Shown here: positions 61,781 through 61,873 of the stretch, piece after piece
How positions within the stretch are numbered: the stretch's first letter is position 1
Layout: every line of letters starts with the position of its first letter
Virus record (IMG/VR): IMGVR_UViG_3300042888_002988
Coordinates: 96,001-160,000 of that record
Origin: a virus
Lineage: Duplodnaviria; Caudoviricetes
Length of the DNA: 64,000 nucleotides
Reading direction: 5' to 3' (one strand)
Notes under the pieces: model-generated
What the model saw: the letters and a program-made list of their open reading frames with translations, nothing else
Told to the model about the DNA's origin: nothing
Database searches by the model: none
Translations under genes and position numbers: made by a program

Positions 61781-61873
61781 GAGCCAGGGCTGGTTGCCTA
61801 TCCGATTATCCGCCGCCGTGGGACGCCACGACGGACATCGGTGGGGTAGGGTTCGAGTCCCTCCCTTGGTTCA
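61781..61873 (+). ncRNA. tRNA-like RNA whose anticodon loop is replaced by an extended hairpin
   Basis: Acceptor GAGCCAG/TTGGTTC, mini D-arm GGC-TGGTT-GCC, CCGAT/ATCGG stem enclosing 30 nt, T-loop TTCGAGT; no encoded CCA. Confidence 0.6.

What the first reader, a model, noticed from the sequence alone, without database searches (positions are those of the whole stretch)
61781..61873. tRNA mimic with the anticodon loop replaced by a 30-nt hairpin extension
Seen: acceptor stem, D-loop GG and T-loop TTCGAGT (the elbow determinants) are retained, but the CCGAT/ATCGG stem continues into TCCG/CGGA and CGTGG-GACG-CCACG instead of a 7-nt loop, and the T-stem is lengthened. It cannot decode. Inference: an elbow/acceptor mimic acting as a decoy for tRNA-targeting defence nucleases, T-box/RelA-type sensors or processing enzymes, or a tRNA with an unusual small intron.
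Basis: partly seen in the sequence, partly recalled or inferred. Interest (0 to 1): 0.75.

Follow-up and report, generated by a model that had tools for sequence, protein, structure and literature searches.

The report
Anticodon-less tRNA mimic in phage
A 200-kb freshwater phage carries, beside its own tmRNA and tRNA genes, a 93-base RNA gene shaped like a tRNA whose anticodon loop is replaced by a long hairpin. Matched mutations in two related phages preserve this shape, so it is a maintained, non-decoding tRNA look-alike whose target is still unknown.

Summary
Window 61781-61873 (+) has an acceptor helix, a small GG-containing D hairpin, a canonical T arm, and a 40-nt arm (5 bp, 6x2 internal loop, 9 bp, GACG loop) where the anticodon arm should be. 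ARAGORN at default settings and Rfam do not call it. I found two homologues in related lake-phage contigs (L030:408-501, L036:9495-9588). RNAalifold recovers the same fold from the three sequences. Five base pairs show double compensatory changes, and all 11 stem substitutions between the window and L036 keep or repair pairing (0 of 200,000 random trials). It is therefore not a decaying pseudogene. The element is about 75% identical between strains whose flanks are 93-100% identical, so it evolves or is exchanged as a cassette. It has no 7-nt loop, no conserved anticodon and no encoded CCA, unlike every neighbouring RNA gene, so it probably neither decodes nor is charged. The closest known thing is the 'TLD-only' mini-tmRNA of mycobacteriophage DS6A. 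However, it fails the tmRNA model, and its G3.U70 pair is not conserved. Best reading: a tRNA-derived mimic that binds a tRNA-reading protein, either a defence or maintenance factor or SmpB. The function is inferred, not shown. This scan has already reported anticodon-less tRNA-like RNAs in other phages.

The parts
61781..61873 (+). The whole tRNA-like element (93 nt)
   Evidence: Sequence. Homologues L030:408-501 and L036:9495-9588 score 96-120 bits with model R1. Consensus fold.
61781..61789 (+). Acceptor helix, 5' strand. Positions 1-7 are certain; G8 and G9 can extend it to 9 bp or instead form the D hairpin.
   Evidence: Pairs 6:87 (A-U to G-C) and 7:86 (G.U to C-G) change on both sides.
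61788..61798 (+). Reduced D arm: GGC/GCC stem, 5-6 nt loop with invariant GG
   Evidence: Predicted by RNAalifold. The stem never varies, so it is neither supported nor contradicted by covariation.
61802..61841 (+). Long arm in place of the anticodon arm: 5-bp basal stem (61802-61806/61837-61841), 6x2 internal loop, 9-bp apical stem (61813-61821/61826-61834), GACG loop (61822-61825)
   Evidence: Compensatory changes at 25:58 (A-U to G-C), 37:50 (C-G to U-A) and 39:48 (U-A via U.G to C-G). The apex GGGACGCC and the segment CGGACA are invariant.
61848..61862 (+). T arm: 4-bp stem AGGG/CCCU and T loop UUCGAGU (UUCGAUU in the relatives); position 49:65 is a U x C or U x U mismatch
   Evidence: A 21-mer covering the T arm and 3' acceptor strand is identical to ordinary tRNA genes of other phages.
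61866..61873 (+). Acceptor helix 3' strand and unpaired A; no encoded CCA (UCA-CGA here, CUCA-CUU and CUCA-AUU in the relatives)
   Evidence: The neighbouring tmRNA, tRNA-Met and odd tRNA all encode CCA.
60337..60372 (+). Promoter-like motif TGCAATT...GTCATAATGATTTGC, upstream of the 179-aa gene and the RNA cluster
   Evidence: The 15-mer occurs only twice in the window, here and at 62452 (0 of 100 shuffles reach 2 matches). The same motif lies at the equivalent sites in relatives. Its function is inferred.
62376..62425 (+). Terminator-like GC hairpin followed by GTCTGTTTACC, closing the RNA cluster
   Evidence: Sequence. The same hairpin plus TTCTTTACC layout is found in relatives. It was not called by the simple terminator scan, so this is an inference.

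Best explanation
The element is a tRNA-derived RNA that no longer decodes and is kept by selection. It retains only the parts of a tRNA that proteins and RNase P read from outside the ribosomal decoding site: the acceptor/T-arm stack, the T loop and the D-loop GG (the elbow). Its anticodon loop has been replaced by a rigid GC-rich 9-bp hairpin with an invariant tip.

It is transcribed with the 179-aa gene, tmRNA, tRNA-Met and the odd tRNA as one precursor. It is presumably cut out by the host's tRNA-processing enzymes. With no encoded CCA, and with its 3' end paired into a 9-bp helix, it is probably not aminoacylated.

I think it most likely acts as a competitive ligand (mimic, decoy or inhibitor) for a host protein that recognises tRNA by the elbow and acceptor helix. 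That could be a tRNA-directed defence nuclease or toxin, or a tRNA maintenance factor. The conserved apical hairpin would supply extra, specific contacts.

Shown: the structure, its conservation by compensatory change, its inability to present a normal anticodon, and its cassette-like divergence. Inferred: transcription, processing, lack of charging, and the decoy mechanism and target.
For: (1) Structure under selection. RNAalifold finds the fold without guidance. 97.4% of pair cells are paired and 5 pairs are doubly compensated. All 11 stem substitutions between the window and L036, and all 5 between L030 and L036, keep or repair pairing. Random substitutions achieve this in 0 of 200,000 trials and in 3.3e-4 of trials respectively.
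(2) The non-tRNA apical helix covaries (37:50 and 39:48, with a U.G intermediate). Its tip GGGACGCC is invariant, so the arm itself matters, not only the processing signals.
(3) The T loop, the D-loop GG and the acceptor helix are retained.
(4) No CCA is encoded in any of the 3 alleles, while the tmRNA, tRNA-Met, odd tRNA and candidate-host tRNAs all encode it.
(5) It is accessory and fast-changing. It is absent from more distant relatives that keep the tmRNA and odd tRNA. It is 74.5% identical between the window and L036 while the flanks are 92.6-100% identical, and the alleles are shuffled relative to the flanks. This pattern is typical of conflict loci.
(6) It lies inside a promoter-to-hairpin unit of RNA genes.
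(7) Phage tRNA genes are known to counter tRNA-targeting defences (PMC10264068, PMC11464382, PMC11555353).
Against: There is no expression, processing or binding data; no RNA run holding the stretch was available. Only three sequences, representing two allele types, are known, all from one narrow phage clade. A decoy has to compete with a very large tRNA pool, so it would need unusually tight binding. Most known tRNA-targeting defence nucleases read the anticodon loop, which this RNA lacks. No phage-encoded partner protein was identified; the neighbouring proteins have no Pfam or PHROG match. The local divergence could reflect recombination with an unsampled relative rather than an arms race.
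Confidence: 0.4

Rival explanations
1. It is a tag-less mini-tmRNA (tRNA-like domain only), like the one in mycobacteriophage DS6A. It would bind host SmpB, and possibly EF-Tu or AlaRS, and so modulate or block host trans-translation, possibly in concert with the phage's own long-tag tmRNA next door.
For: The architecture is very close to the DS6A TLD-only RNA (JN698994:28478-28560): a 7-bp acceptor, a 14-nt D region, a 5-bp stem enclosing an inner hairpin, a T arm, discriminator A, and no encoded CCA. In the window allele G3.U70 and A73 are present. The D region CUGGUU/CAGGAUU resembles the tmRNA D loop UUCUGGUUUCGAC of the phage's own tmRNA. The element lies about 280 nt from a tmRNA gene. 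A TLD-only molecule inhibits tmRNA, perhaps by titrating SmpB (PMC4131195, PMC11915505).
Against: RF00023 gives the DS6A RNA 43 bits but gives this element nothing; its best clan match is tRNA-Sec at 13-16 bits. G3.U70, described as completely conserved in tmRNA (PMC3985003), is not kept here. The relatives have an extra C, and their minimum-energy fold pairs G3 with C and bulges the U. The 49:65 position is a mismatch, and 3 nt lie between the T stem and a 7-bp acceptor. Titrating SmpB would also starve the phage's own tmRNA, and the phage encodes no SmpB. The T arm and 3' strand look like ordinary tRNA genes.
Confidence: 0.2
2. It is a processing or stability module. The tRNA-shaped element only recruits RNase P and RNase Z/E to cut the polycistronic RNA at defined points, or protects neighbouring RNAs from exonucleases, and has no activity in trans.
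For: It sits between other small RNAs in one transcription unit, 5 nt upstream of the odd tRNA. The 13-nt leader CTTCCCGTATGG(G) is conserved in all three, even where the farther upstream sequence differs. tRNA-like elements serve as processing signals in other systems (mascRNA and gammaherpesvirus tRNA-like RNAs; from my own knowledge). Earlier scan notes describe anticodon-less mini-tRNAs punctuating phage operons (unchecked).
Against: RNase P and RNase Z need only the acceptor/T-arm half. That would not explain compensatory maintenance of the 9-bp apical helix and its invariant tip. The downstream odd tRNA and the upstream tRNA-Met carry their own processing signals. Relatives without the element keep the neighbouring RNAs.
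Confidence: 0.2
3. It is a real tRNA with an intervening hairpin in the anticodon loop, which is removed to give a decoding tRNA, possibly Leu- or Arg-like.
For: Without residues 33-54 the loop would read UAUCCGAC, UAUUAGAC or UAUCAGAC, containing CCG, UAG or CAG, and the last two are both Leu anticodons. The 3' half matches type II tRNA-Leu genes of other phages, and the discriminator is A.
Against: The remaining loop has 8 nt and no U33. The putative anticodon is not conserved. The D arm is reduced to 3 bp with a 5-6 nt loop. Position 49:65 is mismatched, and there is no CCA. No bacterial machinery for such small hairpin introns is known (my own knowledge), and no RtcB was found in the phage. 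ARAGORN with introns allowed finds nothing here.
Confidence: 0.05
4. It is a decaying tRNA pseudogene, or a chance structure with no function.
For: It has a degenerate CCA (UCA), a mismatch in the T stem, a shrunken D arm and no anticodon loop. ARAGORN labels it a 'possible pseudogene' at a relaxed threshold. It is absent from most relatives.
Against: All 11 of 11 and all 5 of 5 stem substitutions are compatible with the structure (p below 1e-5 and 3e-4 by simulation). There are five doubly compensated pairs. The sequence is identical in four independent lake samples.
Confidence: 0.05

Closest known systems
'TLD-only' (tag-less) tmRNA of mycobacteriophage DS6A (PMC4131195, PMC11915505)
   Same: It is a phage-encoded RNA of about 80-90 nt with an acceptor helix, a deformed D region of 14 nt, a T arm, discriminator A and no encoded CCA. 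A stem with an inner hairpin replaces the anticodon arm.
   Different: The DS6A RNA scores 43 bits on the tmRNA model and has a clean G3.U70 and a 5-bp T stem abutting the acceptor. This element scores nothing, loses G3.U70 in two of three alleles, has a 4-bp T stem plus a mismatch, and has a much longer 9-bp apical helix. It also coexists with a full-length phage tmRNA.
tRNA-like domain of tmRNA (RF00023)
   Same: It is the upper half of a tRNA without an anticodon, with a GG-containing D loop and a canonical T loop.
   Different: It has no mRNA-like domain, no CCA, no conserved G3.U70 and no model match.
Canonical and type II tRNAs (RF00005), including phage tRNA-Leu and host tRNA-Trp
   Same: The T arm and 3' acceptor 21-mer is identical to tRNA genes of other phages. 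A 16-mer of the T arm is identical to a Verrucomicrobiales tRNA-Trp. It probably descends from such a gene.
   Different: It has no 7-nt anticodon loop, a reduced D arm, no CCA, and a score below 16 bits against the 29-bit threshold.
tRNA-Sec and allo-tRNAs with 9/4, 8/4 or 9/3 acceptor/T branches (PMC5389517)
   Same: A possible 9-bp acceptor plus 4-bp T stem, with a bulged nucleotide in the relatives. Irregular tRNAs of this kind occur in phage tRNA clusters. The weak best Rfam match is tRNA-Sec.
   Different: Those RNAs keep an anticodon loop and a long variable arm and are charged. This one has neither loop nor CCA, and it scores 13-16 bits against a 47-bit threshold.
Bacterial Y RNA-like YrlA (RF02553, PMC4201824)
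   Same: A non-coding RNA with a tRNA-like module that mimics the elbow.
   Different: The 27-bit match (threshold 69) spans this element's T arm and the next tRNA's D arm, which is a by-product of the tandem genes. No Ro60/TROVE gene is present in the phage.
Phage tRNAs that evade or neutralise tRNA-targeting defences (PMC10264068, PMC11464382, PMC11555353)
   Same: A phage RNA gene in a tRNA cluster with an altered anticodon arm, in a fast-changing accessory locus.
   Different: Those are decoding tRNAs that replace cleaved host tRNAs. This RNA cannot decode, so it could act only as a decoy or inhibitor.

Membership tests
Canonical tRNA (RF00005) | Covariance-model score at or above 29 bits, or a call by ARAGORN at default settings | tested here: not met
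   There is no RF00005 match, even at E up to 10 on a 103-nt query. ARAGORN at default settings finds nothing here.
Canonical tRNA (RF00005) | 5-bp anticodon stem closed by a 7-nt loop with U33 and an anticodon | tested here: not met
   The 5-bp stem continues into a 6x2 internal loop and a covarying 9-bp helix.
Canonical tRNA (RF00005) | T arm with the UUCRANY loop, and G18 G19 in the D loop | tested here: met
   UUCGAGU or UUCGAUU, and an invariant GG in the D hairpin loop. The T stem has only 4 standard pairs.
tmRNA TLD / TLD-only mini-tmRNA (DS6A type) | Recognised by the tmRNA covariance model RF00023 | tested here: not met
   There is no match for the window or L036 element. The positive control, DS6A TLD-only, scores 43.2 bits at E 1.6e-17.
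tmRNA TLD / TLD-only mini-tmRNA (DS6A type) | G3.U70 in the acceptor stem, described as completely conserved (PMC3985003) | tested here: not met
   It is present in the window allele only. L030 and L036 carry an extra C, and their minimum-energy fold pairs G3 with C and bulges the U.
tmRNA TLD / TLD-only mini-tmRNA (DS6A type) | An aminoacylatable 3' end (NCCA) | tested here: not met
   The 3' ends are A-CGA, A-CUU and A-AUU, so no CCA is encoded in any allele. DS6A also lacks it, so this feature is weak. Post-transcriptional addition could not be tested.
tmRNA TLD / TLD-only mini-tmRNA (DS6A type) | Binding to SmpB through the deformed D arm | not testable with these tools
   Only a resemblance of the D region (CUGGUU / CAGGAUU) to the tmRNA D loop was seen.
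tRNA-Sec / allo-tRNA | RF01852 score at or above 47 bits; a long acceptor with a short T stem, together with an anticodon loop and a long variable arm | tested here: not met
   13.2 and 15.7 bits. A 9/4 branch is possible, but there is no anticodon loop.
YrlA (Y RNA-like) | RF02553 score at or above 69 bits, and a Ro60 (TROVE) partner | tested here: not met
   27.3 bits, spanning two adjacent genes. No TROVE match in the phage. The host was not tested.
Intron-containing tRNA | Removal of the insert restores a 7-nt loop with U33 and a conserved anticodon | tested here: not met
   The remainder is 8 nt (UAUCCGAC, UAUUAGAC or UAUCAGAC), has no U33, and its triplet varies between alleles.

The most novel reading that the evidence does not exclude
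The element is an RNA anti-defence decoy: a non-chargeable tRNA mimic without an anticodon. Its elbow, acceptor helix and invariant apical hairpin would trap a host tRNA-directed immune nuclease or toxin (or its sensor), protecting the cellular and phage tRNA pool. Its rapid, structure-preserving divergence and cassette exchange would record an arms race with that protein.
Probability: 0.15. Interest if true: 0.85.

Novelty: new variant of a known kind. Interest (0 to 1): 0.55.

Why it matters
Phage tRNA clusters are usually read as codon supply or as replacements for tRNAs cleaved by host defences. A selected RNA that keeps only the externally read half of a tRNA and cannot decode points to a different use of tRNA shape: occupying a tRNA-reading protein. 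If its partner is SmpB, this is a second, structurally distinct route to the DS6A-type mini-tmRNA, in a phage that also carries a full tmRNA. If its partner is a defence factor, this would be an RNA-only anti-defence mechanism. Either way, standard annotation tools miss the gene. It also offers a compact test case (93 nt, two natural alleles with compensated helices) for identifying what reads the tRNA elbow in Verrucomicrobia-type hosts.

Tried and rejected
- Megablast and blastn of 61000-62100 against the phage collection found only generic tRNA-Met-like hits and nothing for the element. tblastn with the terminase fragment found no match.
- The search for related loci with two flanking proteins in IMG/VR found no relatives.
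- Relatives were reached only through the protein database and contig look-ups. Two contigs from run SRR8550535 had no DNA available.
- Pattern scans gave nothing useful. The T-arm 21-mer hit only ordinary tRNA genes. Element-specific patterns gave 0 hits in IMG/VR. They gave 4 chance hits in JGI metagenomes and 8 chance hits for the leader 16-mer.
- Model R1 found no further homologue in 16 related loci, the whole phage, DS6A, 5 candidate-host genomes or 151 genomes of that order. The hits of about 20 bits are ordinary tRNAs. One 28.6-bit hit has no tRNA-type T loop and was judged to be chance.
- Sequencing runs: no RNA holder was listed, so nothing can be said about expression. Contigs of four lake runs carry the element without any difference, so they added no covariation.
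- The ARAGORN 'tmRNA*' call (61407-61850) and the relaxed 'tRNA-Gly(gcc) pseudogene' and 'tRNA-Arg with 166-nt intron' calls were rejected. They conflict with the covarying helices or are low-threshold artefacts.
- Weak Rfam matches (YrlA, tRNA-Sec, mascRNA, L17 leader) are all far below threshold.
- SmpB, TROVE, CCA-adding enzyme and RtcB families gave no match in the phage.
- Overlapping ORFs (61756-62034 + and 61798-62334 -) were rejected as genes. Their GC3 is about 0.6, against 0.72-0.88 in real genes here, and three 1-nt indels separate the alleles.

Full report
**What is there.** The window is bases 96001-160000 of a 200,158-bp IMG/VR phage record, about 61% G+C. Near-identical DNA occurs in lake and freshwater metagenomes. 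Positions 61068-62415 hold a cluster of RNA genes:
- a tmRNA at 61068-61499 (127 bits);
- a tRNA with anticodon CAT at 61508-61583;
- several hairpin RNAs;
- the element at 61781-61873;
- five bases further on, an odd tRNA at 61879-61958 with an enlarged anticodon loop.

A promoter-like motif (TGCAATT...GTCATAATGATTTGC, 60337-60372) precedes the 179-aa gene that ends 14 nt before the tmRNA. The same 15-mer recurs only at 62452, in front of the next gene. A GC-rich hairpin at about 62379-62415 closes the cluster. The element therefore lies inside one plausible transcription unit, though this is an inference.

**Checking the observation.** I number the element with 1 = 61781.
- Positions 1-7 pair with 86-92, including G3.U90 and G7.U86, and A93 is unpaired.
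- GGC (8-10) pairs with GCC (16-18) around the loop UGGUU.
- CCGAU (22-26) pairs with AUCGG (57-61).
- AGGG (68-71) pairs with CCCU (79-82) around the loop UUCGAGU.
- Where a 7-nt anticodon loop should be, there are 30 further nucleotides that fold on themselves.

ARAGORN at default settings and Rfam at gathering thresholds call nothing here. Even a 103-nt query at E up to 10 gives only tRNA-Sec at 13 bits and fragments of the T arm. ARAGORN at relaxed thresholds offers a 'possible pseudogene tRNA-Gly(gcc)' at 61783-61872 with a long variable arm. The single-sequence fold is only mildly better than shuffles (z = -2.4), and its minimum-energy structure is a rod, not a cloverleaf. One sequence alone could therefore not settle the matter.

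**Finding relatives.**
- DNA searches of the phage collection and protein-seeded scans of IMG/VR found nothing.
- The 355-aa protein upstream (58615-59682) has 59 homologues in the large protein collection.
- Their contigs show conserved gene order: 821 aa on the minus strand, then 355, 210 and 179 aa, then the RNA cluster, then the terminase region.
- Relatives at 63-74% protein identity keep a tmRNA with either a CAT tRNA or an odd tRNA, but have no counterpart of the element.
- Two closer contigs do have one. L030:408-501 comes from the same sample as L017. L036:9495-9588 has flanks about 93-100% identical to the window.
- Further pattern scans of IMG/VR and JGI metagenomes returned only chance hits.
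- A covariance model built from the three sequences (R1) found no other member in the related loci, the whole phage, DS6A or 156 Verrucomicrobiales genomes.

**Structure under selection.**
- RNAalifold on the three sequences, with no guidance, returns the acceptor helix, the 3-bp D hairpin, the 5-bp basal stem, a 9-bp apical helix with a GACG loop, and the 4-bp T stem.
- With that structure, 97.4% of pair cells are standard pairs, against 34-60% when the partners are slid by 1-3 columns.
- Five pairs change on both sides: 6:87 (A-U to G-C), 7:86 (G.U to C-G), 25:58 (A-U to G-C), 37:50 (C-G to U-A), and 39:48 (U-A, U.G, C-G).
- Between the window and L036 there are 11 substitutions in stem columns. 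Ten form the five compensated pairs, and the eleventh repairs the only mismatch (C36 x A51 to C-G).
- In 200,000 simulations of 11 random stem substitutions, none gave 26 of 26 pairs, and only 2e-5 kept 25.
- Between L030 and L036 all five stem changes also keep or repair pairs (3.3e-4 by simulation).
- The rod-like competitor fold of the window sequence is not conserved in the relatives.

The relatives favour one continuous 9-bp apical helix (33-41/46-54) over UCCG/CGGA plus CGUGG/CCACG. The extended T stem is peculiar to the window allele. Alternatively, G8 and G9 can pair with C85 and C84(U), giving a 9-bp acceptor helix. The folding energies do not decide between these.

**What it is not.** It cannot be a normal decoder:
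- It has no 7-nt loop.
- If the apical hairpin were removed, 8 nt would remain without U33.
- The triplet at the anticodon position differs between alleles (CCG, UAG, CAG).

It encodes no CCA in any allele. The tmRNA, the CAT tRNA, the odd tRNA and the tRNAs of candidate hosts all encode it. Where CCA would lie in the ancestral 7/5 frame there is UCA, and its UC pairs with the two bases (GA) upstream of the ancestral +1. The 3' end is thus drawn into the helix. The relatives have one extra C here, which is a bulge in the 9-bp reading.

It is not coding. GC3 of the overlapping ORFs is about 0.6, against 0.72-0.88 in real genes, and three 1-nt indels separate the alleles.

**Origin.** The 21-mer covering the T arm and the 3' acceptor strand is identical to ordinary tRNA genes (Leu, Thr, Val, Asn) of unrelated phages. 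A 16-mer of the T arm equals that of a Verrucomicrobiales tRNA-Trp. The element is therefore most simply a remodelled tRNA gene.

The phage tmRNA is closest to tmRNAs of Luteolibacter and other Akkermansiaceae, about 80% identical over the first 116 nt, whereas other phyla share only the 3' 32-mer. This points to a freshwater Verrucomicrobiales host. That is an inference only.

**Population pattern.**
- Four lake or freshwater runs carry the element with no differences.
- Between the window and L036 the element is 74.5% identical. The upstream hairpin is 94.5% identical, the odd tRNA 100%, and the downstream 280 nt 92.6%.
- L036 carries the L030-type allele (93.5% identical to L030) in a window-type background.
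- One run (X5) has the L036-type left neighbour, 375 nt replacing 61503-61645, together with the window-type element.
- The element is therefore exchanged, or diverges, as a cassette. The whole cluster is a mosaic of modules.

**Comparison with known RNAs.** The closest described object is the 'TLD only' tmRNA of mycobacteriophage DS6A. A similar molecule inhibits tmRNA, perhaps by titrating SmpB (PMC4131195, PMC11915505). I located the DS6A RNA at JN698994:28478-28560. Its layout is very close to the present element: a 7-bp acceptor with G3.U70, a 14-nt D region, a 5-bp stem with an inner hairpin, a 5-bp T arm, discriminator A, and no CCA. But RF00023 gives it 43 bits and gives this element nothing. 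The G3.U70 pair, described as completely conserved in tmRNA (PMC3985003), survives only in the window allele. In the relatives the minimum-energy fold pairs G3 with the extra C. The phage has no SmpB gene and already encodes a full tmRNA that would compete for the same SmpB. I therefore keep 'works like a TLD-only RNA' as a rival (0.2) and do not file the element as a member.

Matches to tRNA-Sec/allo-tRNA (PMC5389517) and to YrlA are far below threshold. The YrlA match simply spans two adjacent genes, and no TROVE gene was found.

**Mechanism.** The retained parts are the acceptor/T stack, the T loop and the D-loop GG. These are what RNase P, CCA-adding enzyme, EF-Tu, SmpB, T-loop modification enzymes and several toxins read (established knowledge of these enzymes). 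The lost parts are those needed for decoding and charging. The long arm is maintained by compensation and has an invariant tip, so it is more than a spacer. That argues against a pure processing signal, which needs only the acceptor/T half.

Together with the accessory, fast-changing and cassette-like behaviour, I consider a competitive tRNA mimic of a host tRNA-reading protein the most likely reading (0.4). The other readings are SmpB titration (0.2), a processing or stability module (0.2), an intron-bearing tRNA (0.05) and a pseudogene (0.05). None of the functional steps is shown. Transcription, excision, 3' end status and partner all need experiments.

**Verdict.** This is a real, selected, non-decoding tRNA-like RNA gene. 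It forms a small new family of three sequences and two allele types, within the known kind of anticodon-less tRNA mimics in phages. Earlier notes of this scan report such mimics, mainly TLD-only mini-tmRNAs, in many other phages (unchecked by me except for the DS6A control). Interest is moderate. It would be high if the partner proves to be a defence factor.

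Noticed in passing
window 61879-61958; L030:505-584; L036:9592-9671; L018:9013-9090: An odd tRNA with canonical D and T arms and an encoded CCA, but a 10-nt anticodon loop (GCCAACACUU; GCCCACACUU in L030; UCCACAUUUC in L018). Its anticodon stem resembles a Verrucomicrobiales tRNA-Trp. Between the window and L030, G3.U70 becomes C-G and an anticodon-stem U-A becomes G-C. So it is under structural selection, but its alanine-type G3.U70 is not conserved.
   Followed up: partly
window 61068-61499 (tag 61164-61271); L036:8555-8985; L028:8864-9267: The phage tmRNA has a 35-codon tag, ANSNEFAMTSAEADALLANGIAAPTGVEAGALAAA* (translated). 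Relatives also have long tags (28 aa in L028). The ends look like a normal short tag with an insert. The phage has no SmpB gene.
   Followed up: partly
window 61503-61645 versus L036:8987-9363 and run X5: The RNA cluster is a mosaic. In L036 and in one lake run, the CAT tRNA plus the 73-nt rod are replaced by about 375 nt carrying another CAT tRNA and an 87-aa ORF. A contig from SRR8550535 (DNA not available) has a cluster about 520 nt shorter. L030 lacks the roughly 200-nt structured domain after the odd tRNA.
   Followed up: partly
window 60337-60372 and 62452-62466; L021, L022, L025, L027 at the equivalent sites: A conserved phage promoter-like motif, TGCAATT(N10-22)GTCATAAT(G/A)(A/C)TTTGC, with the start codon only about 2 nt after it at 62468 (a near-leaderless gene). 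Terminator-like GC hairpins are followed by TTCTTTACC.
   Followed up: partly
window 61500-61507, 61769-61780, 61959-61970; L018:9093-9105: A recurrent spacer motif TTCCC(R)(Y)(R)(Y)GG lies in front of or behind several RNA modules (TTTCCCACGG, CTTCCCGTATGG, TTTCCCCACGTCCCGG, CTTCCCGTGTGG). It may be a processing signal.
   Followed up: no
L018:8880-9000; L028:9270-9355; L030:290-390: Relatives carry a different rod-like RNA after the tmRNA or tRNA. It begins with the conserved GGCGAGTCTGCATT and forms a long imperfect hairpin. It is another unclassified RNA family of this phage group.
   Followed up: no
whole phage; loci L062, L063, L070, L086, L094, L105, L123, L125, L127: The phage tmRNA is most similar (about 77-81% over the first 116 nt) to tmRNAs of Luteolibacter, Haloferula and other Akkermansiaceae. 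This suggests a freshwater Verrucomicrobiales host. The genes here lack obvious Shine-Dalgarno sequences.
   Followed up: partly
L022-L025, downstream of the cluster: In several relatives a LAGLIDADG_2 homing-endonuclease gene lies next to the 469-aa minus-strand gene, at the position of the terminase region. The window's terminase was noted by another reader as split by an intein.
   Followed up: no
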